Of a DNA stretch of 64,000 nt, positions 39,465 to 64,000 are shown piece after piece; position 1 is the first letter of the stretch; each line of letters begins with the position of its first letter. The translations under genes were made by a program, and so were the position numbers. This DNA comes from Escherichia coli (GTDB lineage Bacteria; Pseudomonadota; Gammaproteobacteria; Enterobacterales; Enterobacteriaceae): NCBI RefSeq assembly GCF_041886205.1, contig NZ_CP169029.1. One strand, 5' to 3'. The notes under the pieces are model-generated. The model saw only the letters and a list, made by a program, of their open reading frames with translations, was not told the origin of the DNA and did not search any database.

Positions 39465-39491
39465 CCTTCACGCTTAACATCTGAGTTTGAT

Positions 39492-39567
39492 GTTAAAACT
39501 GGTGGGTCGTGCAGGATTCGAACCTGCGACCAATTGATTAAAAGTCAACTGCTCTACCAACTGAGCT
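39492..39567 (-). tRNA. lysY: tRNA-Lys (UUU)
   Basis: Identical 76-nt tRNA-Lys sequence. Confidence 0.95.
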
Positions 39568-39570
39568 AAC

Positions 39571-39646
39571 GACCCGAGTGGTGGGTGATGACGGGATCGA
39601 ACCGCCGACCCCCTCCTTGTAAGGGAGGTGCTCTCCCAGCTGAGCT
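39571..39646 (-). tRNA. valZ: tRNA-Val (UAC)
   Basis: Reverse complement is GGGTGATTAGCTCAGCTGGGAGAGCACCTCCCTTACAAGGAGGGGGTCGGCGGTTCGATCCCGTCATCACCCACCA. Confidence 0.95.
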
Positions 39647-39697
39647 AATCACCCGATACTGCGCTGGATACTACAAACTACTTCCACCGAACCCACC

Positions 39698-39773
39698 GTA
39701 ATTAGTGGTGGGTCGTGCAGGATTCGAACCTGCGACCAATTGATTAAAAGTCAACTGCTCTACCAACTGAGCT
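39698..39773 (-). tRNA. lysW: tRNA-Lys (UUU)
   Basis: Identical 76-nt tRNA-Lys sequence. Confidence 0.95.
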
Positions 39774-39775
39774 AA

Positions 39776-39851
39776 CGACCCGGTGGTGGGTGATGACGGG
39801 ATCGAACCGCCGACCCCCTCCTTGTAAGGGAGGTGCTCTCCCAGCTGAGCT
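39776..39851 (-). tRNA. valT: tRNA-Val (UAC)
   Basis: Identical 76-nt tRNA-Val sequence. Confidence 0.95.
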
Positions 39852-39886
39852 AATCACCCAATACTACGCTGGATACTACAACTAAC

Positions 39887-39959
39887 TATGTTAGTGGTGG
39901 GTCGTGCAGGATGACTCGACTTCGTCTCGCCCTTCGGGCCGTTGCTGATGCAACGTTAT
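39887..39959. repeat. Inter-tRNA spacer repeat (copy 3 of 3)
   Basis: TGGTGGGTCGTGCAGGATGACTCGACTTCGTCTCGCCCTTCGGGCCGTTGCTGATGCAACGTTATCCTTCACG. Confidence 0.8.
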
Positions 39960-39986
39960 CCTTCACGTTTTACTACCGCTTCCACC

Positions 39987-40062
39987 TTAGCGATTGGTGG
40001 GTCGTGCAGGATTCGAACCTGCGACCAATTGATTAAAAGTCAACTGCTCTACCAACTGAGCT
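39987..40062 (-). tRNA. lysT: tRNA-Lys (UUU), promoter-proximal gene of the operon
   Basis: Identical 76-nt tRNA-Lys sequence; operon promoter expected at 40063-40200. Confidence 0.95.
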
Positions 40063-40234
40063 AACGACCCACTTTTTCGTTGCTTTCGGTTTGTTTGATA
40101 TCCCGTGGCAACGGCGGCATATATTACTGATTTCAGACTTGAGCGCAACAAAAATTTCGATGCAGATCACTCAACTGCTTATGATTCGCACGACACGACC
40201 AGAAATAATGCGACTTCTGGTCGTGTGTTATGCA

Positions 40235-49971: not shown

Positions 49972-50916
49972 ATGAGTCCTGATAATATCAGTTCTGCTGT
50001 CAATCGCTTCTCAGGTTGGCCATCTAATGATCCTCTAAAAACAGATAAAGAATCAATGACATCACCCGTGACTGTGCAGGTAATAAAGATGATTGCCGCC
50101 ATCCTTGACCCACATCGGATAGTCGTTGGAATTGATACACTTTATACAACGCAGCGCGAAACATTTACCTCAGAGAGTCAACAGCTCATTGAATCAGCAT
50201 TGCAAACACTTCATGTGATGAATTTAAATAACCTGGAAACAAATCGCGATGAAGAAGGTCACTATCTGGCTTTTGAATATAACCTTGACACCTCTGACAG
50301 AATAACCGTTTCTGCTTATAATGAAAAAAATCTTGGCTGCTATGGCCAATGTCTTTTAATACAGGATGACGAAACAGACTTATTCAACCTGATAAAAATT
50401 AAAATTTTTGAAGCCAGGCATAATTATGTCGCTCAATTGATGAGCGATCCGGAATTTATGTTCAAATTCAGTTATAGCGCTCAACAAAATAGATTAGAAC
50501 CTCATCTTCTGGTTCCCGCTTATTTTCCTCTAAAAACAAACGAACCGGTTACGCAAGAGGATGTACTGTTACTTTATCGTTTCTTTAAAATGAATGATGA
50601 TTTTAATAAATTAACATCAGATGAATACATGAGTATCATGACACCTCTGATGAAGTGTGAGCGTAGCGTCCACGACCACAACAGGTATGTGACGGGCAAA
50701 GATACCCTTCTCCTGGACTATCCTCCTTCTGGTAACCAGATACATTTCCATGTTTTCCCTGACGAATCAGCAACACTAGTCCTTTATTTTTCAAACAATG
50801 ACCTTGAATGTTTCGTCTTTGAAAAAGATATTCCGAGCCAGTATCGCTTTTTCAAAATGTTTACCAATCTGGCACTGGTTATAGATCAGTTAACCGAAGC
50901 CAATAAAATACTTTAA
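49972..50916 (+). CDS. Hypothetical protein, 314 aa, no recognisable domain; AT-rich
   Basis: Long ORF with plausible RBS (GAGG) before ATG. Strongly AT-biased codon usage unlike flanking core genes, no signal peptide or TM segment visible. Confidence 0.55.
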   Translation: MSPDNISSAVNRFSGWPSNDPLKTDKESMTSPVTVQVIKMIAAILDPHRIVVGIDTLYTTQRETFTSESQQLIESALQTLHVMNLNNLETNRDEEGHYLAFEYNLDTSDRITVSAYNEKNLGCYGQCLLIQDDETDLFNLIKIKIFEARHNYVAQLMSDPEFMFKFSYSAQQNRLEPHLLVPAYFPLKTNEPVTQEDVLLLYRFFKMNDDFNKLTSDEYMSIMTPLMKCERSVHDHNRYVTGKDTLLLDYPPSGNQIHFHVFPDESATLVLYFSNNDLECFVFEKDIPSQYRFFKMFTNLALVIDQLTEANKIL

Positions 50917-50997
50917 TTTTCTATATATCCTCTGTGACAAATATTGCTTAACAATGCCCGGGGATTAATTTTTATTACTCACGGTAAGATTTAAATA

Positions 50998-51480
50998 ATG
51001 ATACCATCTCAGATCTCTTTCAATACTCTTCCTGTCAATGCAACATACGCTTCAGAGACAACAGTTGACACACAAAAATTCTCTGAAATCCTCTACTCAG
51101 CGGGGTGTTCCCTAAAGGATCTGGCTTATCTGAACAGATGTCTGGCATCATTACACCCAACTATCGCCAAAAACATTTATGAAACAGAAAATCTCAGCGA
51201 TCAAAAATTACTGCATATTGATTGCCGTAGTACAAATGAAATCAAGATAAATATCTTTTTTGGTCAGCAACGAGAAGGATTAATTGAAATTAGTTCTGAC
51301 ACAGTTATTTTTTCGATACTGTCTTCATTGATTGACTCCGCCATTTCTAAATTTCAACACCAAATCCCGTTAACGGTTCAGTTAATCCTGAACTATTGTA
51401 TGAGGATTATACTGATTAAATCCACCCTGTCGCGAAAAATGGCCTACGTTATTGCCAGACGTAATAAAACCTTTGATTAA
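50998..51480 (+). CDS. Hypothetical protein, 160 aa, no recognisable domain; AT-rich
   Basis: Co-directional with the preceding ORF, 81-bp spacer, similar AT-rich composition. Confidence 0.5.
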   Translation: MIPSQISFNTLPVNATYASETTVDTQKFSEILYSAGCSLKDLAYLNRCLASLHPTIAKNIYETENLSDQKLLHIDCRSTNEIKINIFFGQQREGLIEISSDTVIFSILSSLIDSAISKFQHQIPLTVQLILNYCMRIILIKSTLSRKMAYVIARRNKTFD

Positions 51481-51966
51481 CGTTACTCATACTGGTAGCA
51501 CCTTCATGTACCTCTCTTTTTTACGAAAAATCAAAAGAGCTAACGAAGGTCATAATTCGCATGAATCATTAATCATTTGTTATTTTCAACATTATTTTTA
51601 TATTAAGCAGAAATGAATTGCAGTGAAATTCGACTTAAATTTTATGAAATGCATTTACTCATGGCTAAACCCATATCACCAAAATGCAAATTAGAAGTAG
51701 ATCACAATTATCTCAATACATCAAATCAAGTTAATTTTAAAAATTTAACATTCATGACATTAGTTGACATAACATACTGAATTAACATGGAAATTTAAAA
51801 CCACACGTTAAACAATCATTTCCCGAAAGACATTTTGAAAATAGATCAATTGCAACATTACGGTCAGATAAAGACACTCCTGTGATATTAAACCTACGCC
51901 GTTATGAACGGCCATAAATACGACGTGTGTAACTTATTTTACTCTCTGTCTTACAAAGGATTACCC

Positions 51967-52416
51967 ATGAAGAAAACAACACTTGTGATTGGCGTTATTG
52001 GCGCGGACTGCCATGCAGTAGGCAATAAAGTTCTGGACCGCGTTTTTAGCAACCACGACTTCAGAGTCATTAATCTGGGCGTAATGGTCAGCCAGGACGA
52101 ATATATTGATGCTGCCATTGAAACTGGCGCTGACGCGATTGTCGTCTCCTCTATCTATGGGCATGGCGATATCGACTGTCTGGGCATGCGCGAACGCTGC
52201 ATCGAGCGTGGACTGGGGGACATCCTCCTCTATGTGGGCGGTAACCTGGTGGTCGGAAAACATGACTTCGCTGACGTGGAAACCAAGTTCAAAGAGATGG
52301 GATTTGATCGCGTCTTTGCCCCAAGTCATGACTTAGAAGATGTTTGTCAGCTGATGGCCCACGATATCAACCAACGTCATGACGTTGATACTCGCATTCT
52401 TGAAGAGGCAATCTGA
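51967..52416 (+). CDS. Glutamate mutase sigma (S) subunit, B12-binding domain (methylaspartate mutase small subunit)
   Basis: [27 protein letters not shown]… carries the cobalamin-binding DxHxxG-type motif (…DCHAVGNK…); about 149 aa. The ORF track begins upstream at 51904. Confidence 0.85.
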
Positions 52417-53804
52417 TGCAAATCGTCTCTGTCGATATTGGATCGACGTGGACCAAAGCAGCCCTCTTCACCCGGGAGGGGGACGCGTTAACGTTGGTTA
52501 ACCACGTACTGACCCCAACCACCACCCATCATCTGGCGAAGGGGTTTTTCTCCAGCCTGAACCAGGTGTTAAACGTAGATAATGCCCTCCCCCTGTTAAA
52601 CAGCGGTGAGGTTGCATTGAAGTATTCCTCCTCTGCCAAAGGTGGGCTGGCGGTTGCCGCAATGGGATTAGTGCCTTCTATCACCCTGGAAACCGCGAAA
52701 GTAACTGCTCACTCAGCGGGTGCTAAAATTGCGCAATATTATGCCTACAAGCTGAACCGCCGTGATATCCAGGCACTGGAAGAAACGCAGCCCGATATTC
52801 TCTTGTTCACCGGCGGCACCGACGGCGGAGAAGAAAGCTACGGACTGAATAACGCCCGTGTGCTGGCAGAATCCAAACTCGACTGCGCCATTATTTATGC
52901 CGGAAACCGGGATATTCAGGACGAGGTGCAGGAGATCCTCGGGCATAAAGACCTGACCATCGTCGACAACGTTCTGCCCGATCTTGACCATCCGAACCCT
53001 TTAGCTGCACGCCAGGCTATCTGCGACATATTCCTTAAACGCATCGTTAAAGGGAAAGGGCTGGATGTCATTGTTGATAAAACAGGCGAAGAACCAATGC
53101 CGACACCATGGACGGTCTTTGAACTGGTTAAGGCAATCAGTAACGTCGATCACAGCTGGAAAGAGTTCATGCTGATCGACATGGGCGGCGCAACCACCGA
53201 TGTTTATTCCGCCTGTGCCAACACGCTCTCGCCCGACACCGTTTTACACGGCGTACCGGAACCCTTCGTAAAACGGACGGTGGAAGGCGATCTGGGAATG
53301 CGCGTCTCGGCAGTGGTGGTTGGTGAAAGTGCGAAAGAGTTAGTCAATGTGAATTTTGCTCAGCAACCCGCACAGCTGGACGCTTTTTATCATTATCTCC
53401 GTCATTTAGTCGCTCATCCCGACTACTTACCCGCAAATGCAGAAGAGAAATATTTCGATACCGTCCTGGCCGGACTGTGTGTGGGTTATGCCACCGAAAG
53501 ACATGCGGGCACCAAAAAAGAGGTCTGCACCTGCGTCGGCAATGTCGATTTACAGATGGGACGCGACCTGACAACCGTGCGTAAAGTCGTGGGATCCGGC
53601 GGATGGCTCTCGCGTGCCAGTCAGTTCGATATGCATCACTGGTTGAAATACCGCGAGTTAAACGACGACGGTAAACGCATTCTCTTACCGACCGAATTTG
53701 AATATTACCGCGATTCCCGGGGGCTATTACCACTGCTGGCAAACGTCGCCAGAGTCGATCCTCTGGCCGCCGCGCGCACCAGTATTCAATGCTTAACCCT
53801 ATAA
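52416..53804 (+). CDS. Glutamate mutase accessory protein (GlmL/MutL-like, actin-fold ATPase)
   Basis: 462 aa, [18 protein letters not shown]…; placed between the S and E subunit genes as in clostridial operons. Confidence 0.75.
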   Translation: MQIVSVDIGSTWTKAALFTREGDALTLVNHVLTPTTTHHLAKGFFSSLNQVLNVDNALPLLNSGEVALKYSSSAKGGLAVAAMGLVPSITLETAKVTAHSAGAKIAQYYAYKLNRRDIQALEETQPDILLFTGGTDGGEESYGLNNARVLAESKLDCAIIYAGNRDIQDEVQEILGHKDLTIVDNVLPDLDHPNPLAARQAICDIFLKRIVKGKGLDVIVDKTGEEPMPTPWTVFELVKAISNVDHSWKEFMLIDMGGATTDVYSACANTLSPDTVLHGVPEPFVKRTVEGDLGMRVSAVVVGESAKELVNVNFAQQPAQLDAFYHYLRHLVAHPDYLPANAEEKYFDTVLAGLCVGYATERHAGTKKEVCTCVGNVDLQMGRDLTTVRKVVGSGGWLSRASQFDMHHWLKYRELNDDGKRILLPTEFEYYRDSRGLLPLLANVARVDPLAAARTSIQCLTL

Positions 53805-53822
53805 CAATTAAGGCTGCAATCA

Positions 53823-55268
53823 ATGGAACTTCGAAATAAGAAATTAACCCATGACGAATTCATGACCGAGCGGCAACAGGTACTGAAAACCTGGGAAACC
53901 GGCAAGGATGTTGAAAACTTTGAAGATGGCGTTAAATACCAACAAACCATCCCTGAGCATAAACGCTTCTCTCTTGCGCTGCTGAAAGCAGACAAGGAAG
54001 GTAAAACCCTTAGCCAACCGCGCGCAGGTGTGGCGCTGATGGACGAACACATCGAACTACTGAAAACACTACAAGAAGAGTGCGATCTGCTGCCAAGCAC
54101 CATCGATGCATATACCCGTCTGAATCGGTACGAAGAAGCGGCTGTAGGGATTAAAAAATCCATCGAAGCCGGAACCTCTAAACTGAACGGTTTACCGGTA
54201 GTTAACCACGGCGTCGCAGCTTGCCGTCGCCTCACCGAAACCCTGCAAAAACCGCTACAGATCCGCCACGGCACGCCAGATGCGCGTCTGCTGGCTGAAA
54301 TCTCGATGTCCAGCGGCTTTACCAGTTACGAAGGCGGCGGCATTTCCTACAACATTCCGTATGCCAAACGCGTAACGCTGGAAAAATCGATCCGCGACTG
54401 GCAGTACTGCGACCGTTTAATGGGGATGTACGAAGAACACGGGATCCGCATCAACCGCGAACCATTTGGCCCACTAACGGGTACGCTGATCCCGCCGTTT
54501 ATCTCGCACTCTATCGCCATAATCGAAGGATTGCTGGCACTGGAACAGGGTGTGAAATCTATCACCGTTGGTTATGGCCAGGTCGGCAGCCTGACGCAGG
54601 ATGTTGCGGCGATCCAGTCTCTGCGTGAACTTGCACACGAATATTTTCAGAGCTATGGCTATACCGACTATGAATTGAGTACCGTGTTTCACCAGTGGAT
54701 GGGCGGCTTTCCGGAAGACGAATCGAAAGCGTTCGCTATTATCTCCTGGGGCGCAGCCGTCGCGGGGATGTCTGGTGCCACCAAAGTCATCACCAAAAGT
54801 CCGCACGAAGCCTGGGGCATCCCGACTGCCGCTGCCAACATTCAAGGGCTAAAAGCCTCCCGCCAGATGCTCAACATGGTCAATGAGCAGAAATTCCCGC
54901 CGTGCCCTGCGGTTGAACTGGAAATTGAACTGATTAAGAGCGAGGTTCGCGCGGTACTGAATAAAGTGTTTGAACTGGGTAATGGTGATATTGCGCGCGG
55001 TACGGTGCTGGCATTTGAAGCGGGCGTACTGGATGTGCCGTTTGCGCCAGCCGCCTGCAACGCGGGCAAAATTCTTCCGGTCCGTGACAACACCGGCGCG
55101 ATACGCGTACTGGAAGCCGGAGCCGTTCCATTGCCAAAAGATATTCTCGACCTCCACCACGATTACGTTGCGGAACGCGCACGCTTTGAAGGACGCCAAC
55201 CGACATTCCAGATGGTTGTAGATGACATCAATGCTGTATCCCACAGTAAATTAATAGGAAGACCATAA
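53823..55268 (+). CDS. Glutamate mutase epsilon (E) subunit (methylaspartate mutase large subunit)
   Basis: 481 aa; TIM-barrel mutase E-subunit-like sequence immediately after S and L. Confidence 0.85.
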   Translation: MELRNKKLTHDEFMTERQQVLKTWETGKDVENFEDGVKYQQTIPEHKRFSLALLKADKEGKTLSQPRAGVALMDEHIELLKTLQEECDLLPSTIDAYTRLNRYEEAAVGIKKSIEAGTSKLNGLPVVNHGVAACRRLTETLQKPLQIRHGTPDARLLAEISMSSGFTSYEGGGISYNIPYAKRVTLEKSIRDWQYCDRLMGMYEEHGIRINREPFGPLTGTLIPPFISHSIAIIEGLLALEQGVKSITVGYGQVGSLTQDVAAIQSLRELAHEYFQSYGYTDYELSTVFHQWMGGFPEDESKAFAIISWGAAVAGMSGATKVITKSPHEAWGIPTAAANIQGLKASRQMLNMVNEQKFPPCPAVELEIELIKSEVRAVLNKVFELGNGDIARGTVLAFEAGVLDVPFAPAACNAGKILPVRDNTGAIRVLEAGAVPLPKDILDLHHDYVAERARFEGRQPTFQMVVDDINAVSHSKLIGRP

Positions 55269-56509
55269 TGAAAATAAAACAGGCTCTGTTCACCGCTGGC
55301 TACTCCTCATTCTATTTCGATGACCAGCAGGCGATAAAAAACGGAGCGGGTCATGACGGCTTTTTTTATACCGGGGAGCCGGTAACACAGGGGTTTAACG
55401 CCGTTCGTCAGGCCGGGGAGTGCGTATCGGTACAGTTGATTCTGGAAAACGGCGCGGTCGCCGTAGGTGACTGTGCTACCGTACAGTATTCCGGGGCAGG
55501 TGGTCGCGATCCACTGTTCCTCGCAGAGCACTTTATTCCGTTCCTCAACGATCATATCAAGCCATTACTGGTAGGCCGCGATGTGGATGCTTTCCTGCCG
55601 AATGCCCGTTTCTTCGACAAATTGCGTATTGACGGCAACTTGCTGCATACCGCCGTGCGCTACGGATTATCACAGGCGCTGCTTGATGCTACCGCGCTGG
55701 CAACCGGCCGTCTGAAAACTGAAGTGGTCTGTGATGAATGGCAGTTGCCACGCGTGGCGGAATCCATTCCATTATTTGGTCAGAGCGGCGACGATCGATA
55801 TATCGCCGTCGATAAGATGATCCTTAAAGGCATCGACGTGCTGCCCCATGCGCTGATTAATAACGTCGAGGAGAAGCTGGGCTTTAAAGGTGAAAAACTG
55901 CGCGAATATGTCCGCTGGCTGTCGGATCGCATTCTGAGCAAGCGCACCAGCGCACGCTACCACCCTACCCTGCACATCGATGTATACGGCACTATCGGTC
56001 TGATCTTCGATATGGATCCGCTTCGCTGTGCGCAATACATCGCCAGCCTGGAAACAGAAGCGCAAGGCCTGCCGCTCTACATTGAAGGGCCGGTCGATGC
56101 CGGTAACAAGCCCGATCAAATTCGCCTGCTGACCGCGATTACCAAAGAGCTGACGCGCCTCGGTTCTGGCGTGAAAATTGTGGCCGATGAATGGTGTAAC
56201 ACTTACCAGGATATTGTTGATTTCACCGATGCCGCCAGTTGCCACATGGTGCAAATCAAAACCCCGGATCTGGGCAGTATTCACAACATCGTCGATGCGG
56301 TTCTTTACTGCAACAGCCACAGCATGGAAGCATACCAGGGCGGCACCTGCAATGAAACTGATGTCAGTGCCCGCACCTGTGTCCACGTCGCCCTAGCCGC
56401 TCGCCCTATGCGTATGCTGGTAAAACCAGGGATGGGCTTTGACGAAGGCCTCGATATCGTCTTCAACGAAATGAATCGTACTATCGCGCTGTTGCAGGCT
56501 AAGGATTAA
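55268..56509 (+). CDS. mal: 3-methylaspartate ammonia-lyase (enolase superfamily)
   Basis: 413 aa, MKIKQALFTAGYSSFYFDDQQAIKNGAGHDGFFYTGEPVT…; start overlaps the mutase E stop (TAATG). Confidence 0.85.
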   Translation: MKIKQALFTAGYSSFYFDDQQAIKNGAGHDGFFYTGEPVTQGFNAVRQAGECVSVQLILENGAVAVGDCATVQYSGAGGRDPLFLAEHFIPFLNDHIKPLLVGRDVDAFLPNARFFDKLRIDGNLLHTAVRYGLSQALLDATALATGRLKTEVVCDEWQLPRVAESIPLFGQSGDDRYIAVDKMILKGIDVLPHALINNVEEKLGFKGEKLREYVRWLSDRILSKRTSARYHPTLHIDVYGTIGLIFDMDPLRCAQYIASLETEAQGLPLYIEGPVDAGNKPDQIRLLTAITKELTRLGSGVKIVADEWCNTYQDIVDFTDAASCHMVQIKTPDLGSIHNIVDAVLYCNSHSMEAYQGGTCNETDVSARTCVHVALAARPMRMLVKPGMGFDEGLDIVFNEMNRTIALLQAKD

Positions 56510-56512
56510 CAA

Positions 56513-57883
56513 ATGGCTCGTTCTTTTAAAGTCTTATCGCCAACGGCAATCCTCGGGTATGGATTCCCGGAAGAGAGCTTCCGCAAAGCGATGGCAGAAT
56601 CGCCTGATCTGATCGCCGTTGATGCAGGCTCTTCCGATCCTGGCCCCCACTACCTCGGAGCGGGCAAACCGTTTACCGATCGCGCAGGGGTCAAGCGCGA
56701 TCTGCGCTATATGATCACCGCAGGCGTGCAAAATAATATACCGGTGGTGATCGGAACGGCCGGCGGTTCTGGTGCCGCACCACACCTGGAGTGGTGCCGA
56801 GAAATAATTCATGAGATTGCCCGGGAAGAGCTCCTCTCGTTCTCGATGGCACTGATCCCGGCAGACGTTGACAAAGCCATCGTCCACCAGGCGCTGGATA
56901 ACGGCAAAATCACGGCGCTGGATTTTGTCCCGCCGTTAACCCACGACGCGATTGACGAAAGTACGTATATCGTCGCGCAAATGGGCATCGAACCCTTCCA
57001 GCGGGCGCTGAAAGAAGGCGCGCAAGTGGTGCTGGGCGGGCGCGCTTACGACCCGGCCTGCTTTGCTGCGCTCCCGATCATGCAAGGCTTTGATGAAGGT
57101 CTGGCGCTGCATTGTGGGAAAATCCTTGAATGCGCGGCAATCGCCGCAACGCCCGGCTCAGGCTCTGACTGTGCGATGGGCATCATTGATGACAACGGCT
57201 TTACGCTGAAGACATTTAATCCGAAGCGTAAATTTACCGAAACGTCAGCAGCTGCACACACACTGTATGAGAAATCCGATCCCTACTTCCTGCCAGGACC
57301 TGGCGGCGTGTTGAACCTGAAAGGCTGCACATTTAAAGCAGTCAATGACGGCGAAGTGTACGTCAGCGGTTCCAAGCATGAAGAAACGCCGTATGCCCTG
57401 AAACTGGAAGGTGCGCGACGGGTGGGCTTCCGCTGTCTGACCATCGCCGGAACGCGCGACCCGATCATGATCGCCGGGATCGATAAAATCATCGATGAAG
57501 TCAAAACCAGCGTTTCGCGTAACCTGTCGCTAGACGATGACAGCATTCGCATCAATTTCCACCTGTACGGCAAAAACGGGGTGATGGGCGACCATGAACC
57601 GATGCAAACTGCCGGGCATGAGCTGGGGATTGTCCTTGATGTAGTTGCACCGACCCAGGAAATTGCCAATAGTGTTTGCTCGCTGGTGCGCTCTACCATG
57701 CTGCACTACGGCTATGAAAACCGCATCGCTACCGCAGGCAACCTGGCGTTCCCGTTCTCTCCTTCTGATATCCAGGGCGGGCCGGTATACGAATTTTCCA
57801 TATATCACCTGATTGAAGCCAACGACGCTCTGCGTTTTGATTTCCATATTGAACAGGTGACGCCAGAAGGAGTTCAGGCATGA
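56513..57883 (+). CDS. Uncharacterised protein, 456 aa, resembling the AtuA-like (DUF1446) family
   Basis: Family assignment by remembered similarity only; in-operon position right after mal with a 3-bp gap. Confidence 0.6.
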   Translation: MARSFKVLSPTAILGYGFPEESFRKAMAESPDLIAVDAGSSDPGPHYLGAGKPFTDRAGVKRDLRYMITAGVQNNIPVVIGTAGGSGAAPHLEWCREIIHEIAREELLSFSMALIPADVDKAIVHQALDNGKITALDFVPPLTHDAIDESTYIVAQMGIEPFQRALKEGAQVVLGGRAYDPACFAALPIMQGFDEGLALHCGKILECAAIAATPGSGSDCAMGIIDDNGFTLKTFNPKRKFTETSAAAHTLYEKSDPYFLPGPGGVLNLKGCTFKAVNDGEVYVSGSKHEETPYALKLEGARRVGFRCLTIAGTRDPIMIAGIDKIIDEVKTSVSRNLSLDDDSIRINFHLYGKNGVMGDHEPMQTAGHELGIVLDVVAPTQEIANSVCSLVRSTMLHYGYENRIATAGNLAFPFSPSDIQGGPVYEFSIYHLIEANDALRFDFHIEQVTPEGVQA

Positions 57884-58197
57884 AACAGTCAATTGTCTCA
57901 CTGGCGCAAGTCATTCGTTCGAAAAATGCCGGACCTTACGAACTGGTTTTAGATATTTTATTTAAAACTAAAGAAAACTATGAGCGAGTTAAATCATCAG
58001 GGCAATTAACCCCAGAACTGATTGCGCGCTTATATCATGTTGAACCTGACTTTATTCATCGTATTGTCTGGTTTGATCCTTCTAACGCAGTAAAAATCGT
58101 CATGCCACGAGATATTATCTCCGGGAATGTAGGTGACAATGATGTCTATGGTGCACAGCAACATGCACCTTTATTAAATATGAGTTTCGATTTGTAA
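57880..58197 (+). CDS. Uncharacterised small protein, 105 aa (DUF4387-like), translationally coupled to the preceding gene
   Basis: ATG overlaps the upstream stop (ATGA); this small partner commonly accompanies the AtuA-like family. Confidence 0.6.
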   Translation: MKQSIVSLAQVIRSKNAGPYELVLDILFKTKENYERVKSSGQLTPELIARLYHVEPDFIHRIVWFDPSNAVKIVMPRDIISGNVGDNDVYGAQQHAPLLNMSFDL

Positions 58198-58280
58198 AAA
58201 TCCGAACACTTTTAGCCAACTGACATCCCGTCACTTATTGCAGTTCAACACTTCAGCTATTTGTAAGGTTGTAATAGCAG

Positions 58281-58330
58281 GTAGATGCCTGAATCTCTAT
58301 TCAGGCATCTACTTCTCCTGATTCTGATTT
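58281..58330 (+). terminator. Rho-independent terminator after the mutase/lyase genes
   Basis: Perfect 14-bp stem GTAGATGCCTGAAT-CTCT-ATTCAGGCATCTAC followed by TTCTCCTGATTCTGATTT. Confidence 0.75.
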
Positions 58331-58336
58331 ATCGCC

Positions 58337-59638
58337 GTGCACCTGATGGAGGAAAAAATGAAGAAAATAAGTTTAACCACGATGATTCTTTTGGCGCTGG
58401 TACTTGGAATGATTATCGGCGTAGTGCTCAATAACACTGCTTCACCGGAAACAGCAAAACTCTATGCGCAAGAAATATCGATATTCACGACGATTTTCTT
58501 ACGACTGATAAAAATGATTATCGCTCCGCTAGTGGTTTCTACCCTGGTGGTAGGTATTGCTAAAATGGGCGATGCCAAAGCCCTTGGCCGTATTTTTTCT
58601 AAAACACTCTTTTTATTTATTTGCGCCTCATTGCTATCAATTGCCTTAGGCTTGATAACGGTAAATTTCTTCATGCCAGGTACAGGAATTAATTTTGTTG
58701 CACACGGTGCCGAAACCACTGGAGTGGTCGCGTCAGAACCCTTCACGCTAAAAGTATTTATTTCGCATGCTTTCCCCACCAGCATTGTCGATGCCATGGC
58801 GCACAATGAAATTTTGCAAATCGTGGTGTTCTCAATTTTCCTCGGCTGTAGCCTGACGGCGATTGGCGAGAAAGGCAGCGCCATCGTTCACGCCTTAGAT
58901 TCGCTGGCACATGCCATGTTAAAGCTCACTGGCTACGTCATGCTCTTCGCTCCCCTGACCGTATTCGCCGCTATTTCAGCATTGATTGCTGAACGAGGAC
59001 TGGCAGTTATGGTGAGCGCCGGGATCTTTATGGGTGAATTTTATTTCACCATGTTATTACTTTGGGTGCTGCTTATCGGTCTGGCCATCGTTTATGTCGG
59101 CCCCTGCATCAGACGCCTGACCCGCGCCCTTTCGGAACCCGCCCTGCTGGCATTTACCACATCCAGTTCTGAAGCGGCTTTTCCGGGAACGCTTGAAAAA
59201 CTGGAGCAATTTGGCGTTTCCCCCAAAATTGCCAGCTTTGTCTTACCCATTGGCTACTCATTTAATCTCGTTGGATCAATGGCCTACTGCTCCTTCGCCA
59301 CCGTTTTCATCGCCCAGGCCTGCAATATCCATTTATCCATCGGTGAGCAAATCACCATGCTGTTGATCCTGATGTTGACCTCGAAAGGAATGGCTGGCGT
59401 ACCACGCGCCTCAATGGTGGTTATCGCCGCCACGCTCAACCAGTTCAATATTCCGGAAGCGGGGCTGATCTTGCTGATGGGCGTTGATCCGTTCCTTGAT
59501 ATGGGGCGTTCCGCGACAAACGTCATGAGCAACGCAATGGGCGCTGCGATGGTGAGTCGGTGGGAAGGCGAACATTTCGGCGAGGGCTGTCGGGGTAAAG
59601 CATTAAAATCCAATGAATCGAACGTTGCTCTGCCCTGA
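58337..59638 (+). CDS. Dicarboxylate/amino acid:cation symporter (DAACS, GltP/DctA-like)
   Basis: 433-aa polytopic membrane protein with DAACS-like motifs (…LTSKGMAGVPRASMVVIAATL…). True start may be the downstream MKKISL (58358). Confidence 0.8.
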   Translation: MHLMEEKMKKISLTTMILLALVLGMIIGVVLNNTASPETAKLYAQEISIFTTIFLRLIKMIIAPLVVSTLVVGIAKMGDAKALGRIFSKTLFLFICASLLSIALGLITVNFFMPGTGINFVAHGAETTGVVASEPFTLKVFISHAFPTSIVDAMAHNEILQIVVFSIFLGCSLTAIGEKGSAIVHALDSLAHAMLKLTGYVMLFAPLTVFAAISALIAERGLAVMVSAGIFMGEFYFTMLLLWVLLIGLAIVYVGPCIRRLTRALSEPALLAFTTSSSEAAFPGTLEKLEQFGVSPKIASFVLPIGYSFNLVGSMAYCSFATVFIAQACNIHLSIGEQITMLLILMLTSKGMAGVPRASMVVIAATLNQFNIPEAGLILLMGVDPFLDMGRSATNVMSNAMGAAMVSRWEGEHFGEGCRGKALKSNESNVALP

Positions 59639-59745
59639 GGGGGATCTTAAGCAATCAGAAGCCAATGACTACGTATTTTTATAAGCCGGATCATGAAGTT
59701 AGACGGCAATTAAGTAACACTAACGTTTAAGGTGAAAAGTGAAAT

Positions 59746-61398
59746 ATGTCCAAACCTTTTATCTGGCAAGAACCGTTTCTACAAAATAAAGACGGTACAG
59801 AATATACATTAATTAGCGATCAACATATTACAGTAACGGAATTAGACGGCGAAGAAGTGATAAAAATCGCTCCTGAAGCATTAACGCTGCTTGCCCGGCA
59901 GGCATTTTATGAAGCCTCTTTTTTCTTACGTTCCGCTCATTTGCAACAGGTCGCCAGCATTCTTAACGATCCGCAGGCCAGTAGTAATGATAAATACGTT
60001 GCGTTGCAGTTATTACGTAATGCTGAAGTCTCAGCAAAAGGGGTATTACCCAACTGTCAGGATACCGGCACCGCAACTATTGTTGCCAGTAAAGGGCAAC
60101 AGATATGGACCGGAGGTAACGACGCCGAAGCCTTAAGCAAAGGCATTTACACCACTTTTCAGGAAAATAATCTGCGCTTTTCACAAAATGCGCCGCTGGA
60201 TATGTATACCGAAGTCAATACGCAAACCAATCTCCCGGCGCAGATTGATATCAGCGCTGTCGCTGGTAATGAGTACCATTTTCTCTGTGTTAATAAAGGG
60301 GGCGGCTCTGCCAATAAAGCCGCGCTTTATCAGGAAACCAAATCCTTATTGCAACCAGAAAAACTGACCGCATTTTTAATCGAAAAAATGAAATCGCTGG
60401 GCACCGCTGCCTGCCCGTCTTATCACATCGCCTTTGTCGTCGGAGGGCTTTCAGCCGATCAAACCTTAAAAGTTGCCAAGCTGGCTTCTACGAAATATTT
60501 CGACAATTTGCCCACCAGCGGAAACGAGCAGGGACAAGCATTCCGTGATATTGAGCTGGAAAAAGCGTTGCTCGAGGCCAGTCAGCAATTTGGTATTGGT
60601 GCGCAATTTGGGGGTAAATATTTCGCTCATGATATTCGCGTCATTCGTCTGCCGCGTCACGGTGGCTCTTGCCCGATAGCTATGGCGCTCTCCTGTTCAG
60701 CCGATCGCAATATCAAAGCAAAAATTAACAAACACGGTATCTGGCTGGAAAAACTCGAACACAATCCGGGGCAATATATTCCAGCCTCACTGCGGGAAGA
60801 AAATCACGCGCAACATGTACAACTGGATCTAAACCGTCCGTTGCGTGACGTGATGCAGGATCTCGCCAGATTACCGGTAGGCACCCGCGTGTCGTTAAGT
60901 GGTCCCATCGTAGTGGCGCGCGATATCGCCCACGCCAAAATAAAAGCGCGGCTGGATAGCGGCGAACCGATGCCGGATTACCTGAAGCATCATATTGTCT
61001 ATTACGCTGGCCCGGCGAAAACACCGGAGAACATGGCCTGCGGTTCACTGGGTCCAACCACGGGCGGTCGAATGGACGGTTATGTCGATACCTTCCAGGC
61101 GGCTGGCGGCAGTCTGGTGATGTTATCGAAAGGTAACCGCAGCCAGCAGGTCACCGATGCCTGTCACAAACATGGCGGCTTCAATCTGGGAAGTATTGGC
61201 GGTGCAGCTGCGTTACTGGCGCAAGAATATGTCAAAAGTCTGCGTTGCCTGGAATACCCGGAGCTGGGTATGGAAGCGGTGTGGATGATGGAAGTGGAAA
61301 ATCTGCCCGCATTCATCCTGGTAGATGATAAAGGCAATAATTTCTTTAGTCAGTTTGAGCAGCAACACCGCTGCGCCAGTTGCCCTGCGGGACATTAA
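59746..61398 (+). CDS. Class I (Fe-S) fumarate hydratase paralogue, candidate mesaconase
   Basis: 550 aa, collinear with FumA/FumB (…[11 protein letters not shown]…, …[11 protein letters not shown]…, …[16 protein letters not shown]…) but clearly diverged. Confidence 0.85.
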
Positions 61399-61407
61399 GG
61401 AAAATGA

Positions 61408-62010
61408 ATGGAAGCGCGAATTTCAACTGAACGGCATGTGCAGCGCCAACAGAAATTGAAGGAACAGGTCGATACGCGCGTCGCGGCGGCGATAGAGAAA
61501 AAAGGGATCTTGATTGTTTTCACCGGCAACGGCAAAGGGAAATCCACTGCCGCGTTTGGTACTGTGACGCGCGCGGTGGGTCATGGCAAAACGGTGGGGG
61601 TTGCGCAGTACATCAAGGGGCAATGGGACAACGGCGAATACAACCTTCTCCAGCCGCTGGGGGTTGAGTTTCATATTATGGGAACCGGTTTTACCTGGGA
61701 GACACAGAACCGGCAAGCGGATATCGACGCGGCGAAAGAGGTCTGGTCGGAAAGCAAACGGATGCTGGCTGACAAGCGTTACGACTTAGTGGTGCTTGAT
61801 GAGCTGACCTATATGCTGGCTTACCATTATCTGGATACCGAAGAAGTGATCGCTTCTCTGCAAAACCGCCCGGCACAACAAAGTGTCATTGTCACCGGAC
61901 GCGGTTGCCACAGTCAGATATTAAAAATGGCGGATACGGTAAGCGAAATCCGTCCCGTCAAACATGCTTTTGATAACGGCATTCAGGCCCAGCCGGGTAT
62001 CGACTGGTAA
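61408..62010 (+). CDS. Cob(I)yrinic acid a,c-diamide / corrinoid adenosyltransferase paralogue (BtuR/CobO family)
   Basis: 200 aa, …ILIVFTGNGKGKSTAAFG… P-loop, collinear with BtuR. Confidence 0.85.
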   Translation: MEARISTERHVQRQQKLKEQVDTRVAAAIEKKGILIVFTGNGKGKSTAAFGTVTRAVGHGKTVGVAQYIKGQWDNGEYNLLQPLGVEFHIMGTGFTWETQNRQADIDAAKEVWSESKRMLADKRYDLVVLDELTYMLAYHYLDTEEVIASLQNRPAQQSVIVTGRGCHSQILKMADTVSEIRPVKHAFDNGIQAQPGIDW

Positions 62011-62013: not shown

Positions 62014-62046
62014 CTGCGCCTGGCATCCCGCCAGGCGCAGGTTTTA
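62014..62046. terminator. Hairpin between convergent genes (likely bidirectional terminator)
   Basis: CTGCGCCTGGC-ATCCC-GCCAGGCGCAG followed by GTTTTAC. Confidence 0.6.
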
Positions 62047-62949
62047 CATCTCCTGCGGTACGACCGATTTCACCAGCAACCATTCACGAAATTGCTGCAA
62101 GTGCGGTGAGTCAGACTTCTCTTCCTGCCACGTCATAATAAAACGATTACCGGTACGAATAGGCACATCACAGGGGATCACCATATCGCCACTATCCAAA
62201 TCATGTTGAATAGCGAACCGTGGTAACAGCGCCACGCCGAGATTAGAGCGCACGGCGGCAATCAGCATTGAAAGCAAATCGAAACGTGGTCCGTTGTTGA
62301 CCAGCGGACTGCTAACGCCAGATAAAGCAAACCACTCTTCCCAGCCAGTAATACGGGTGCTTTGATGCAGAAGTGGTAACTCAGTAAGCAGTTCTGCCAC
62401 TGACAGTTTTTGATCGGACATTGCAAGCAAACTGCCACTGCATACCGGCAAAATCTCCTCTTCAAAGAGATATTCTACTTCCGCCCAGGGCGCGCAAAAA
62501 TTTTCGCGCATAATGACAGCATCGTACTCCCGATTAAGAAAATCGCCGTTATTAGCTAAAGAATGAATATTAACAATAATATCGGGATGTAACTTTGTGA
62601 ATTCATGTAAATTTGGGATTAACCAGTGGGTACTAAAAGTAGGATTAACGGCAAGTTCAATAACCTGAACCGTAGGCTGCCAGGTCATAATGGTATTGGT
62701 ATCGCGTTCCAGCTTATTTAATGTTTCTTTTACTATCCCCAGGTAATACTTCCCTGCATCATTAAGAAAAATGCGTTTTTTAGAGTGTGAAAATAATGGA
62801 GTATGTAAAAATTCCTCCAGCGCACTTACTTGTCTGAATACAGCACTTTGGGTTAACGCTAACTCCTCTGCCGCTCTGGTATAACTTTCATGACGTGCGA
62901 CGACCTCAAAAGTCACCAGCAGTTCCGTTTTAGGTATTTTCCCTCGCAT
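62044..62949 (-). CDS. LysR-family transcriptional regulator
   Basis: 301 aa, N-terminal HTH (…VTFEVVARHESYTRAAEELALTQSAVFRQVSALEE…). Confidence 0.85.
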   Translation of the reverse strand: MRGKIPKTELLVTFEVVARHESYTRAAEELALTQSAVFRQVSALEEFLHTPLFSHSKKRIFLNDAGKYYLGIVKETLNKLERDTNTIMTWQPTVQVIELAVNPTFSTHWLIPNLHEFTKLHPDIIVNIHSLANNGDFLNREYDAVIMRENFCAPWAEVEYLFEEEILPVCSGSLLAMSDQKLSVAELLTELPLLHQSTRITGWEEWFALSGVSSPLVNNGPRFDLLSMLIAAVRSNLGVALLPRFAIQHDLDSGDMVIPCDVPIRTGNRFIMTWQEEKSDSPHLQQFREWLLVKSVVPQEM

Positions 62950-63159
62950 AATGCCTTCCGTGAAAAAAATAACAATTCAAAAATTATTTTATAAAAAACA
63001 GTAGCACTAATGAATATCATAATTCAAATAAACAAACCAGTCAGCTATATGTCCAACCAGAAAAATAAAGTGACAATAATCCTAAAACAGTAATTTCACC
63101 TCAGTTATCCACATGCAATACTTTAAAAATATTATTGCAAGAATATTATTCATATACAT

Positions 63160-63295
63160 GAATATACTCTAAATAAGTCGAGTTGCAGGAAGGGAACAAA
63201 TAATGAATCTCCAGAAGATTACATAAGTAAGTGACCTGGGTGAGCGAACATCGATGCAGCACATGCAACTTGAATTATGACAAGTATACAATGAT
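63160..63295. repeat. ERIC/IRU element (second copy in window)
   Basis: …GAGTTGCAGGAAGGGAAC…ACATAAGTAAGTGACCTGGGTGAGCGAAC…GCAGCACATGCAACTTGAA…, about 85% identical to the copy at 17430-17560. Confidence 0.8.
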
Positions 63296-63539
63296 AAATT
63301 TAGATACCCTATGTTATATATTATCTATGTCCGGTTAAATTGAATGAGTCATGGCCTTAAAAGACTTCGCAAAAGATTATTTCTCTTTAACAATAAGCCA
63401 GATTTACCACTTGTAAAAATTGCTATCGCCACATACACTACGCGCGTTTTCTTTCCCTTTTGCTGGCTGCTGACCGGAAAGACAAAATTACCCTCGCAAT
63501 ACAGGGGGGTGTTTAACGTCTATATTTCAGGATAGCGTT

Positions 63540-64000
63540 ATGCATCATCTTTCAAGGTTTGATAAAGCCTTTCTGCGCAAAGGGATCCAACTTTCCCGCG
63601 CCAACAATATTGTTTCATTATCTCGTCCATCAGGTGCCAGTGCCCGCGTACTGTTGCCGGACGAACTGCCACTGGAAGAAAAAGCAGTGACACAACTGCT
63701 TGATTTTGCAGAAGTGAAGCTACCAGACCATCCAGGTTATGTACGCCAGACGTGCGCGACGCCAGATTTTCACCCCGGCAATGGCGTCCCCGTTGGCGCG
63801 GTGGTGGCCTCAACGCCGGATTTAGTCATTCCCGCCGCCATCGGCACCGATATTTCTTGCGGCATGCGGCTGCTAACGACTGGATTAACACTTGAACAAG
63901 CCGAAGCGCATAAAGACGTCATCACTCAGCGGTTAACGCAAGTGCTACTGCAAAATGAGCGCGATGTTCCGTTATCCGCACAGGCGTTCACCGCGCTTTT
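63540..64000 (+). CDS. RtcB-family RNA ligase paralogue, N-terminal part (gene runs past window end)
   Basis: Own translation MHHLSRFDKAFLRKGIQLSRANN…TPDFHPGNGVPVGAVVASTPDLVIPAAIGTDISCGMRLL… contains the RtcB metal-site motifs (PDxH…G, IGxDIxCGM). Confidence 0.7.
   Translation, partial: MHHLSRFDKAFLRKGIQLSRANNIVSLSRPSGASARVLLPDELPLEEKAVTQLLDFAEVKLPDHPGYVRQTCATPDFHPGNGVPVGAVVASTPDLVIPAAIGTDISCGMRLLTTGLTLEQAEAHKDVITQRLTQVLLQNERDVPLSAQAFTAL

What the first reader, a model, noticed from the sequence alone, without database searches (positions are those of the whole stretch)
62950..64000. RtcB-family ligase paralogue next to a LysR regulator rather than a sigma-54 activator
The window ends in an RtcB-like gene (metal-site motifs present) whose upstream region contains an ERIC element and a divergently placed LysR regulator. 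The canonical RNA-repair operon is controlled by a sigma-54 enhancer-binding protein, so this looks like a second, differently regulated copy. The gene is truncated by the window edge, so its operon partners are unknown.
Basis: partly seen in the sequence, partly recalled or inferred. Interest (0 to 1): 0.4.

Follow-up and report, generated by a model that had tools for sequence, protein, structure and literature searches.

The report
Third RtcB ligase with RNA leader
The window ends in an intact, stand-alone third type of RtcB RNA-repair ligase gene that is most likely controlled by its own promoter and a conserved, apparently undescribed folded RNA leader, not by the neighbouring LysR regulator, which belongs to the adjacent glutamate-fermentation genes.

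Summary
An RtcB-family ORF starts at 63540 (PF01139, E 2e-18). A degenerate ERIC element lies at about 63182-63290 and a divergent LysR gene at 62044-62949.

The closest complete genome (99.97% identical) carries three RtcB genes: rtcBA-rtcR, rtcB2-prfH, and this 465-aa monocistronic gene. The three proteins are about 29% identical to each other. The 465-aa protein has every catalytic residue, an RtcB fold, and dN/dS of 0.07-0.16.

The LysR gene is the regulator of the neighbouring methylaspartate (glutamate-fermentation) cluster. It occurs in 1133 of 5426 E. coli genomes, the ligase gene in 300, and the two are adjacent in only 144. In about 150 of the other ligase-carrying genomes an 8.6-kb hut operon separates them. 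In 12 other lineages a LysR gene lies within two genes only once, by a different arrangement.

The gene travels with its own sigma-70-type promoter and an about 95-nt structured 5' leader (63448-63542). The leader was found in 75 of 78 loci across Beta- and Gammaproteobacteria. It has covarying helices and an invariant GCUGCUG loop complementary to the ribosome-binding region. It has no Rfam match.

Best reading: an accessory RNA-repair ligase under RNA-based, probably translational, control by an unknown signal.

The parts
62044..62949 (-). LysR-type regulator (LTTR) of the adjacent methylaspartate/glutamate-fermentation cluster. It is a neighbour of the ligase system, not a part of it.
   Evidence: Pfam HTH_1 and LysR_substrate domains. 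The best NCBIfam match is the GcvA subfamily, below its cut-off. It is named LTTR of the cluster in PMC4682846 Fig. 5. It is present in 1133 of 5426 E. coli genomes, against 300 for the ligase gene.
62968..63431 (.). AT-rich spacer (29-37% GC) found only in the 144 genomes where LysR and the ligase gene are adjacent. In other strains it is replaced by an 8.6-kb hut operon with its flanks.
   Evidence: BLAST homology to the hut-type and Sakai arrangements stops at 62967 and resumes at 63432. The non-ERIC part is found only in the 144 genomes.
63182..63290 (+). Degenerate ERIC (IRU) repeat copy.
   Evidence: It aligns with the canonical ERIC at window 17455-17565. The ERIC2 primer matches with 2 mismatches. 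It is dispersed at a median of 7 places per genome in 5425 of 5426 genomes.
63411..63439 (+). Predicted sigma-70 promoter of the ligase gene: -35 TTGTAA (63411-63416), 17-nt spacer, -10 TACACT (63434-63439). The -10 hexamer ends 10 nt before helix P1.
   Evidence: a promoter-like pair at this fixed position scores at least 8 of 12 in 61% of 38 lineage representatives, against 1.4% at random positions. CTTGT of the -35 and the -10 hexamer are conserved in the hut-type alleles and in an 86%-identical relative. The prediction is inferred; no transcription start site has been mapped.
63448..63542 (+). Conserved structured 5' leader RNA.
- P1 5' arm: 63450-63456.
- P1 loop: 63457-63475, holding GCUG (63462-63465) and the invariant GCUGCUG (63466-63472).
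- P1 3' arm: 63476-63482.
- P2 long hairpin: 63481-63520, with its apical stem-loop at 63491-63508.
- Loop-complementary segment overlapping the Shine-Dalgarno sequence: CAGGAUAGC, 63528-63536.
- Start codon: 63540.
   Evidence: Covariance model R2 gives 29.2 bits, E 9.4e-5, the only hit in the window. The same motif lies immediately 5' of the orthologous gene in 75 of 78 loci. Covariation is shown. The single-sequence fold has a z-score of -2.28, with P1 and the apical hairpin in the MFE structure. There is no Rfam match.
63540..64000 (+). First 153 codons, plus two bases of the next codon, of a 465-aa RtcB-family ligase of a third clade, called 'RtcB3-type' here. The full gene is 1398 bp including the stop codon and would end about 937 bp beyond the window.
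   Evidence: Pfam PF01139. The full-length ORF was read from the closest genome (L001:13541-14938). Catalytic residues are conserved. The AlphaFold model has pLDDT 92.5, and Foldseek gives TM 0.81 to P. horikoshii RtcB-GMP/Mn. dN/dS is 0.07-0.16.

Best explanation
The window ends in an accessory, monocistronic gene for a third clade of RtcB-family 3'-phosphate/5'-OH nucleic-acid ligase (465 aa). It is distinct from both E. coli RtcB (rtcBA-rtcR) and RtcB2 (rtcB2-prfH).

The enzyme most likely works like other RtcBs. With Mn2+ and GTP, His394 is guanylylated, GMP is transferred to an RNA 3'-phosphate or 2',3'-cyclic phosphate end, and a 5'-OH end attacks to seal the break. This chemistry is inferred from conserved residues and fold.

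Expression does not depend on the LysR neighbour. That gene belongs to the adjacent glutamate-fermentation cluster and became adjacent only in a minority lineage in which the hut operon is absent.

Instead the gene carries its own sigma-70-type promoter and an about 95-nt structured 5' leader. The leader has two covarying helices (P1, P2). An invariant GCUGCUG in the P1 loop can pair with the Shine-Dalgarno/start region as a pseudoknot. The most likely mechanism is translational control: the pseudoknot masks the ribosome-binding site until an unknown signal opens it. The conserved structure is shown; the regulatory function is inferred; the signal and the ligase's natural substrate are unknown.
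For: Protein:
- PF01139 hit.
- 29% identity to E. coli RtcB, with Asp75/Cys78/Asn167/His168/His185/His281/His337 equivalents conserved as D104, C107, N223, H224, H255, H342, H394.
- These residues are invariant in 20 clade members.
- Confident model and RtcB fold.
- Purifying selection, dN/dS 0.07-0.16.
- A large clade of 462-470-aa proteins at about 60% identity in Beta- and Gammaproteobacteria. It is present in 288 of about 100,000 species genomes.

Third paralogue: rtcBA-rtcR and rtcB2-prfH are both in the closest genome. The three proteins are 28-29% identical pairwise. RtcB2 NCBIfam models score below their cut-offs.

Stand-alone: convergent mngB lies downstream. There is no conserved neighbour in 12 lineages.

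LysR unlinked.

Promoter.

Leader:
- GCTGCTG lies 62-134 nt upstream of the start codon in nearly all loci.
- The covariance model hits only at this position, in 75 of 78 loci and nowhere near rtcB1 or rtcB2.
- 83.9% of cells are paired against 66.4% in shuffles, and the covariation score is 0.473 against 0.191 (0 of 500 shuffles). Slid controls give 34-57%.
- RNAalifold finds P1 and P2 with compensatory changes in 12 of 12 pairs.
- P2 MFE z-score averages -2.8.
- Loop-tail duplexes are stronger for cognate than for non-cognate pairs (1 of 5000 permutations) and stronger than for control windows.
Against: - No experiment was done. The transcription start, the RNA fold in vivo and any regulation are inferred.
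- The structural alignment was made with covariance models, so pair counts lean towards the structure.
- The core of the pseudoknot is invariant. Its support therefore rests on flank covariation and on position, and its register differs between lineages.
- In the E. coli copy the loop-tail pairing is the weakest of the set: -8.8 kcal/mol with an internal mismatch. The single-sequence MFE instead puts the Shine-Dalgarno sequence in a local 3' hairpin.
The second model included a close relative (L013), so the window's E-value is not fully independent.
- LysR control in the 144 genomes where the genes are adjacent cannot be formally excluded.
- The three-paralogue count is shown for the closest complete genome (99.97% identical over 62.7 kb), not for the unknown source genome itself.
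Confidence: 0.72

Rival explanations
1. One reading: a second RtcB copy placed under control of the divergently transcribed LysR-type regulator through the shared intergenic region.
For: The genes are divergent and adjacent in the window. LysR-type regulators often control a divergent neighbour (general knowledge). There is no RtcR or sigma-54 promoter at this locus.
Against: - LysR occurs in 1133 genomes, the ligase gene in 300, and adjacency in only 144.
- In EC12, CE10 and an 86%-identical non-coli relative, a hut operon separates them and the ligase gene is divergent from hutU.
- O157 Sakai keeps LysR with the fermentation cluster and has no ligase gene.
- The literature assigns this LTTR to the glutamate-fermentation cluster.
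- The two start codons are 590 bp apart with an ERIC element between them.
- LysR's own upstream DNA is conserved for only 18 bp across the different arrangements.
- In 12 other lineages a LysR gene lies within two genes only once (Burkholderia), divergent from an intervening NmrA-like gene, not in this arrangement.
Confidence: 0.06
2. The conserved upstream block is a DNA-level operator or promoter for an unknown transcription factor, not a functional RNA structure.
For: The invariant GCTGCTG(CAG) and the pyrimidine/purine-asymmetric flanks could be a protein-binding site. The block sits directly downstream of a promoter-like element. The pseudoknot core never varies.
Against: - All 20 pairs of P1 and P2 show changes on both sides that keep pairing: 84-89% paired against 34-57% when slid.
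- RNAalifold recovers the helices independently.
- P2 sequences differ completely between lineages yet fold stably, with mean z-score -2.8.
- Loop flanks covary with the tail next to the start codon, for example GAUGCUG/CAGCAUC in Comamonas and GUGCUGC/GCGGCAC in P. aeruginosa.
Confidence: 0.1
3. The protein is not primarily an RNA-sealing ligase. It could be a DNA or RNA end-capping or DNA 3'-phosphate repair enzyme, as reported for some Myxococcus xanthus RtcB paralogues. Alternatively the gene could be a decaying remnant.
For: - Bacterial RtcB paralogues differ in ligation and capping activities (review PMC10630183 citing Maughan and Shuman 2015).
- The clade is about 29% identical to characterised enzymes and has a clade-specific N-terminal segment and insert.
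- In Chitinimonas the neighbouring gene is recQ.
Against: - The full GTP/Mn2+ ligase residue set and the RtcB fold are conserved.
- Strong purifying selection and intact ORFs across 288 species argue against decay.
- No DNA-repair neighbourhood is conserved.
- The capping alternative cannot be separated from ligation by sequence.
Confidence: 0.1

Closest known systems
E. coli RtcB of the rtcBA operon, activated by the sigma-54 enhancer-binding protein RtcR
   Same: Same protein family and fold. All metal-binding and guanylylation residues are conserved. The same GTP/Mn2+ sealing chemistry is presumed.
   Different: - Only 29% identical, and 465 aa against 408 aa, with an extra N-terminal segment and an about 60-aa insert.
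- No rtcA, no rtcR and no sigma-54 promoter.
- Accessory gene, present in 5.5% of E. coli genomes.
- Preceded by a structured leader that is absent upstream of rtcB.
RtcB2-PrfH ribosome repair module (repairs colicin E3-cleaved 16S rRNA; PMC9304027, PMC9223846)
   Same: It is also an extra RtcB paralogue in non-K-12 E. coli. The best NCBIfam matches are the RtcB2 models.
   Different: - Scores are far below the cut-offs: 206 against 407 bits and 168 against 272 bits.
- 29% identity.
- No prfH downstream.
- The closest genome has a separate intact rtcB2-prfH operon.
Myxococcus xanthus RtcB paralogues RtcB1-3 (Maughan and Shuman 2015; the paper is not held, cited)
   Same: A precedent for several RtcB paralogues in one bacterium with different activities.
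   Different: No leader RNA is reported for them in the papers read.
Pseudoknot-type translational riboswitches and leaders that sequester the Shine-Dalgarno sequence, such as preQ1-II and SAM-II (from general knowledge)
   Same: It works like them in outline: a 5' UTR hairpin loop pairs with the ribosome-binding region, with conserved loop nucleotides and covarying stems.
   Different: No sequence or structure match to any of 4227 Rfam families. The ligand or trigger is unknown, and no binding was tested. It is therefore not filed as a member of any known class.
LTTR of the enterobacterial glutamate-fermentation (methylaspartate) cluster (Kronen and Berg 2015, PMC4682846)
   Same: The window's LysR gene is this LTTR: same position after cobA/cobO and fumD, and 98.9% identical DNA in O157 Sakai.
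   Different: It is not part of the ligase system. The paper does not list an RtcB gene in the cluster.

Membership tests
RtcB family (PF01139) 3'-phosphate/5'-OH ligases | Profile match above the curated cut-off | tested here: met
   67.1 bits against a cut-off of 27 for the 153 in-window residues. All homologues carry PF01139.
RtcB family (PF01139) 3'-phosphate/5'-OH ligases | Two-metal site (Asp75, Cys78, His168, His185, His281 in E. coli numbering) and the His337 GMP nucleophile in the SHGAGR motif | tested here: met
   The equivalents are D104, C107, H224, H255, H342 and H394 in SCSHGAGR. They are invariant in 22 aligned sequences.
RtcB family (PF01139) 3'-phosphate/5'-OH ligases | RtcB fold | tested here: met
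   AlphaFold2 model with pLDDT 92.5. The top 16 Foldseek hits are all RtcB/RTCB structures, with TM up to 0.83 and E down to 3.5e-32.
RtcB family (PF01139) 3'-phosphate/5'-OH ligases | GTP- and Mn2+-dependent sealing activity | not testable with these tools
   This needs purified protein and defined substrates.
Canonical rtcBA-rtcR RNA repair operon | Adjacent rtcA cyclase and divergent sigma-54 activator RtcR with a -24/-12 promoter | tested here: not met
   The neighbours are LysR and convergent mngB. There is no sigma-54 consensus in the upstream region. The canonical operon lies elsewhere in the closest genome.
RtcB2-PrfH module | prfH immediately downstream, and a match to NF007153/TIGR03073 above the cut-off | tested here: not met
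   There is no prfH. Scores are 205.7 against 407 bits and 167.9 against 271.8 bits. A separate rtcB2-prfH operon is present in the closest genome.
LysR-regulated divergent gene pair | Regulator and target stay adjacent across genomes that carry the target | tested here: not met
   They are adjacent in 144 of 300 E. coli genomes that carry the gene, and separated by a hut operon in the others inspected. In the 12 other lineages the arrangement does not recur; a LysR gene lies within two genes only in Burkholderia, divergent from an intervening NmrA-like gene.
LysR-regulated divergent gene pair | LysR binding site (T-N11-A box) close to the target promoter | not tested
   The start codons are 590 bp apart with an ERIC element between them. 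No motif search was done, because the consensus is too weak to be informative.
ERIC / IRU repeats | Similarity to the ERIC consensus core and dispersed multi-copy distribution | tested here: met
   About 87% identity to a canonical copy, a match to the ERIC2 primer, and a median of 7 places per genome.
Cis-regulatory structured leader RNA (riboswitch-like) | Fixed position upstream of orthologous genes across distant taxa | tested here: met
   75 of 78 loci, from Enterobacterales to Burkholderiales, with hits only at that position in 0.9 Mb. It directly follows a promoter-like element.
Cis-regulatory structured leader RNA (riboswitch-like) | Helices supported by compensatory changes beyond the controls | tested here: met
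   (0 of 500 shuffles reach the observed values; slid controls are much lower). Caveat: the alignment was fitted by a covariance model.
Cis-regulatory structured leader RNA (riboswitch-like) | Ligand- or signal-dependent change in expression | not testable with these tools
   This needs reporter assays and structure probing.
Any Rfam 15 family | Covariance-model match | tested here: not met
   No match at E up to 1 in window 62900-64000. No match at the leader in five other loci at E up to 0.5.

The most novel reading that the evidence does not exclude
The leader may be a new class of signal-responsive RNA switch that couples production of a repair ligase to RNA damage. One version is a riboswitch for a damage-related small molecule or cofactor, such as 2',3'-cyclic nucleotides, GTP or Mn2+.

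A more radical version is a self-reporting sensor. The exposed, invariant GCUGCUG loop would be cut by an endoribonuclease toxin (it contains two GCU sites, the specificity reported for MqsR, from general knowledge). The cut would break the pseudoknot that masks the ribosome-binding site. The newly made ligase would then reseal its own leader and shut itself off.

Either version would define a third RtcB system whose trigger can be found by probing a 95-nt RNA.
Probability: 0.25. Interest if true: 0.85.

Novelty: new variant of a known kind. Interest (0 to 1): 0.58.

Why it matters
What bacterial RtcB ligases repair, and when, is still largely open. Only the RtcR-controlled RtcB and the PrfH-linked RtcB2 have assigned roles.

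This locus shows a third, widespread clade, found in 288 species genomes and 5.5% of E. coli genomes. It has no protein partners, but it has a strongly conserved leader RNA. That gives an experimental handle: finding what opens the leader should reveal the condition or damage this ligase answers to.

The result also corrects a tempting mis-annotation. The LysR neighbour belongs to the glutamate-fermentation island. The sucD-cydA interval is a mosaic hot spot where mngRAB, the ligase gene, the hut operon and the fermentation cluster come and go.

Tried and rejected
- **Sigma-54 promoter search.** TGGCAC-N5-TTGCW with 2 mismatches found nothing upstream of the gene, and the total number of matches was at chance level.
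- **Consensus promoter/terminator scan.** It gave near-chance counts and missed the promoter later found by position.
- **Rfam scans.** The window and five other loci gave no family at the leader. A sub-threshold RsmY hit in the P. aeruginosa locus was ignored.
- **PDB sequence search.** There is no close solved structure; the best hits are TTHA1785 and P. horikoshii RtcB at E about 1e-43.
- **Operon partners.** Twelve neighbourhoods showed none. KptA/Tpt1 appeared once, PfkB twice and FAD oxidoreductases twice, and these were treated as lineage effects.
- **Plain MAFFT alignments of the leaders.** They were structurally inconsistent because the loop length varies. They were replaced by an iterated covariance model.
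- **First covariance model.** Built from Burkholderiales only, it was too narrow to reach the E. coli copy at E up to 1.
- **P2 plus U-tract as an intrinsic terminator.** U-richness after P2 is inconsistent between lineages, for example absent in P. aeruginosa. Translational control is therefore preferred.
- **A single column-wise pseudoknot register.** It does not fit all lineages, so the pseudoknot was assessed per sequence.
- **Literature.** No paper in the held library links rtcB to a riboswitch candidate or describes a third E. coli RtcB. The M. xanthus paralogue paper is not held.
- **Source strain.** I first assumed the window came from strain wlxctx60. It differs by 15 substitutions and one IS insertion.
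Full report
**Observation**

The interval 62950-64000 holds 590 bp of intergenic DNA and the start of an ORF. The ATG is at 63540, with AGGA seven bases upstream, and the ORF runs off the window after 153 codons. The fragment hits Pfam RtcB (PF01139) at E 2.2e-18. It contains the first metal-site motif, TDISCGM, with Asp104 and Cys107.

The LysR-family gene lies at 62044-62949 on the minus strand and is divergent from the RtcB ORF.

The ERIC element is real but degenerate. Window 63182-63290 aligns at about 87% with a canonical copy at 17455-17565. The ERIC2 primer matches with two mismatches. The segment recurs about 7 times per E. coli genome.

**Where the window comes from**

Over 62.7 kb the window is 99.97% identical to the E. 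coli strain wlxctx60 chromosome (NZ_AP045833.1). It differs by one 1.3-kb IS3-family insertion. I used that genome to extend the sequence.

The full gene is 1398 bp and encodes 465 aa. It is followed after about 145 bp by convergent mngB. It is therefore monocistronic, and there are no downstream partners to find.

**The protein**

It is 29% identical to E. coli RtcB, with every catalytic residue aligned: D104, C107, N223, H224, H255, R259, H342, and the nucleophile H394 in SCSHGAGR. These residues are invariant across 20 clade members and both other E. coli paralogues.

An AlphaFold2 model is confident (pLDDT 92.5). Its only significant structural matches (E ≤ 0.001) are RtcB/RTCB structures, with TM 0.81 to the P. 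horikoshii RtcB-GMP/Mn complex. No close solved structure exists.

dN/dS between E. coli alleles and an 86%-identical relative is 0.07-0.16. The gene is therefore under purifying selection.

Homologues of 462-470 aa at about 60% identity are common in Burkholderiales, Neisseriales-like taxa, Pseudomonas, Gilliamella, Xenorhabdus and Pectobacterium. A scan of one genome per species found the clade in 288 genomes.

**How many RtcB genes**

The closest genome carries three:
- rtcB-rtcA with divergent rtcR;
- an intact rtcB2-prfH operon;
- this gene.

The three proteins are 28-29% identical to one another. The NCBIfam models for the PrfH-linked RtcB2 are the best matches but fall far below their cut-offs. 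This is a third clade. The E. coli literature I could read names only RtcB and RtcB2.

**The LysR neighbour**

The upstream genes are glmS/L/E, methylaspartase, an AtuA-like gene, DUF4387, a dicarboxylate symporter, class I fumarase FumD and cobO. Together they form the methylaspartate pathway island described in O157:H7. [quoted passage not shown]

Among 5426 complete E. coli genomes:
- the LysR segment is present in 1133;
- the ligase gene is present in 300;
- the two are adjacent in 144.

In O157 Sakai the LysR gene is followed directly by sucD. In strains EC12 and CE10, and in a non-coli relative, an 8.6-kb hut operon lies between LysR and the ligase gene, and the ligase gene is divergent from hutU.

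Homology between the arrangements stops 18 bp beyond the LysR start codon and resumes 108 bp before the ligase start codon. The 464 bp in between (62968-63431, AT-rich plus the ERIC element) is specific to the 144 genomes. In 12 other lineages the neighbours are unrelated to one another, and a LysR gene lies within two genes only once, in Burkholderia, where it is divergent from an intervening NmrA-like gene.

The adjacency is therefore a local accident in a mosaic hot spot, not a regulatory unit.

**What does travel with the gene**

The last about 110 bp before the start codon are far better conserved than synonymous sites: about 88% identical where dS is 1.1. The same architecture appears in distant genera. 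In order, it consists of:
- a sigma-70-like -35/-10 pair ending 6-14 nt before the structure. It scores at least 8 of 12 in 61% of 38 representatives, against 1.4% at random positions;
- helix P1, with a pyrimidine-rich 5' arm and a purine-rich 3' arm, whose loop ends in an invariant GCUGCUG;
- a long hairpin P2 whose base abuts P1;
- a linker;
- directly before the start codon, a segment complementary to the loop.

A covariance model seeded on nine Burkholderiales sequences and iterated once was run over 0.9 Mb. It finds the motif immediately 5' of the gene in 75 of 78 loci. The hits include the window at 63448-63542 (29.2 bits, E 9.4e-5), which is the only hit in the 64 kb. Nothing is found near rtcB, rtcB2-prfH or the Sakai locus.

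On the model-based alignment, 83.9% of cells pair against 66.4% in shuffles. The covariation score is 0.473 against 0.191, and 0 of 500 shuffles reach either value. Sliding the partners by 1-3 columns drops pairing to 34-57%. All 20 P1/P2 pairs show changes on both sides. RNAalifold recovers P1 and P2 on its own, with compensatory changes in 12 of 12 pairs.

Per-sequence tests on 38 representatives gave:
- P1 of 6.4 bp, against 4.4 bp in shuffles;
- P2 MFE z-score averaging -2.8;
- loop-tail runs of 6.9 bp, against 5.2 bp in shuffles;
- cognate loop-tail duplexes stronger than non-cognate ones (1 of 5000 permutations), and stronger than loop against control windows (-12.3 against -9.3 kcal/mol).

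Flank covariation is visible by eye:
- CGCUGCUG/CAGCAGCG in Burkholderia;
- GAUGCUG/CAGCAUC in Comamonas;
- GUGCUGC/GCGGCAC in P. aeruginosa;
- GCUGCA/UGCAGC in Delftia.

No Rfam 15 family matches. I found no paper describing the motif.

**How it most likely works**

The conserved, covarying leader starting at the promoter is shown. The following steps are inferred.

The loop-tail pseudoknot overlaps the Shine-Dalgarno/start region. In the window that is CAGGAUAGC at 63528-63536, and in the Betaproteobacteria it is CAGCAGC directly before the AUG. Its formation should block 30S binding, and some signal should open it.

A terminator reading of P2 is less likely, because a U-tract after P2 is not consistently present.

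In the E. coli copy the pseudoknot is weaker (-8.8 kcal/mol). The single-sequence MFE instead pairs the Shine-Dalgarno and start region with the 3' strand of P2. The detailed switch may therefore differ between lineages.

The signal and the ligase's substrate are unknown. The enzyme chemistry is inferred from family membership.

**Comparison and novelty**

The protein is a clear member of the RtcB family. It is not a member of the rtcBA-rtcR system or the RtcB2-PrfH system. The gene is annotated only as 'RtcB family protein'.

The new elements are:
- recognition of a third, stand-alone clade in E. coli;
- its separation from the LysR neighbour;
- a candidate cis-regulatory RNA specific to the clade.

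I rate this a new variant of a known kind.

**Caveats**
- Everything about regulation is computational.
- The structural alignment is model-fitted.
- The sequences are phylogenetically related.
- E-values from the shortened calibration are rough.
- The three-paralogue count is for the nearest complete genome, not the source genome.

Noticed in passing
window 17455-17565 (+): A canonical ERIC element with perfect matches to both ERIC primer sequences. I used it as the reference copy for the degenerate one at 63182-63290.
   Followed up: partly
window 7900-9206: A 1.3-kb IS3-family insertion sequence (HTH_Tnp_1, HTH_21 and rve ORFs; orfB appears split). It is absent from the otherwise 99.97%-identical genome NZ_AP045833.1 and lies inside a prophage remnant.
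   Followed up: partly
window about 1-13560: A lambdoid cryptic-prophage remnant next to ybhC, at the gal-bio side lambda attachment region. By the annotation of the closest genome it holds an integrase at about 12490-13560, emrE, an ompC-like porin, lysis genes and trkG.
   Followed up: no
window about 39070-40070 (-): An array of seven tRNA genes (Lys and Val) between cpoB and nadA, with internally repeated 76-180-bp units.
   Followed up: no
window about 50000-62010 (+): The methylaspartate (glutamate fermentation) island: glmS/L/E, methylaspartase, AtuA-like, DUF4387, a dicarboxylate symporter, FumD mesaconase/fumarase and cobO. It has already been described for O157:H7 (PMC4682846).
   Followed up: partly
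L011 3607-11347; L012 610-8351; L013 1-6250: A presence/absence polymorphism of a six-gene hut (histidine utilisation) operon between the LysR gene and the ligase gene. The sucD-cydA interval is a mosaic in which mngRAB, the ligase gene, hut and the fermentation island each come and go between strains.
   Followed up: partly
L014 6414-7730; L023 2555-3739: FAD-dependent oxidoreductase genes lie next to the ligase gene in Variovorax and Roseateles. In animals the flavoprotein PYROXD1 protects RTCB from oxidation (PMC13247085). This may be coincidence or lineage inertia.
   Followed up: no
L017 6477-7049: In Chitinivorax the ligase gene is followed by a KptA/Tpt1-type RNA 2'-phosphotransferase gene (PF01885). 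It is the only RNA-repair neighbour seen in 12 contexts.
   Followed up: no
L001 13541-14938 vs L011 12109-13506 vs L012 9109-10506: Synonymous divergence between E. coli alleles of the ligase gene is high (dS 0.12-0.19). This suggests old alleles or import from other Escherichia lineages.
   Followed up: no
window 63450-63482 and orthologous leaders: The P1 arms resemble an anti-Shine-Dalgarno / Shine-Dalgarno pair (CCUCC/GGAGG, CCUUCCU/AGGAAGG). The last two G of P1 can alternatively pair with the CC that ends P2. The invariant GCUGCUG is unexplained.
   Followed up: no
window 63344-63535 (+): A 63-codon ORF overlaps the predicted promoter and the leader. It spans the recombination junction and is not conserved in the hut-type strains, so it is probably spurious.
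   Followed up: no
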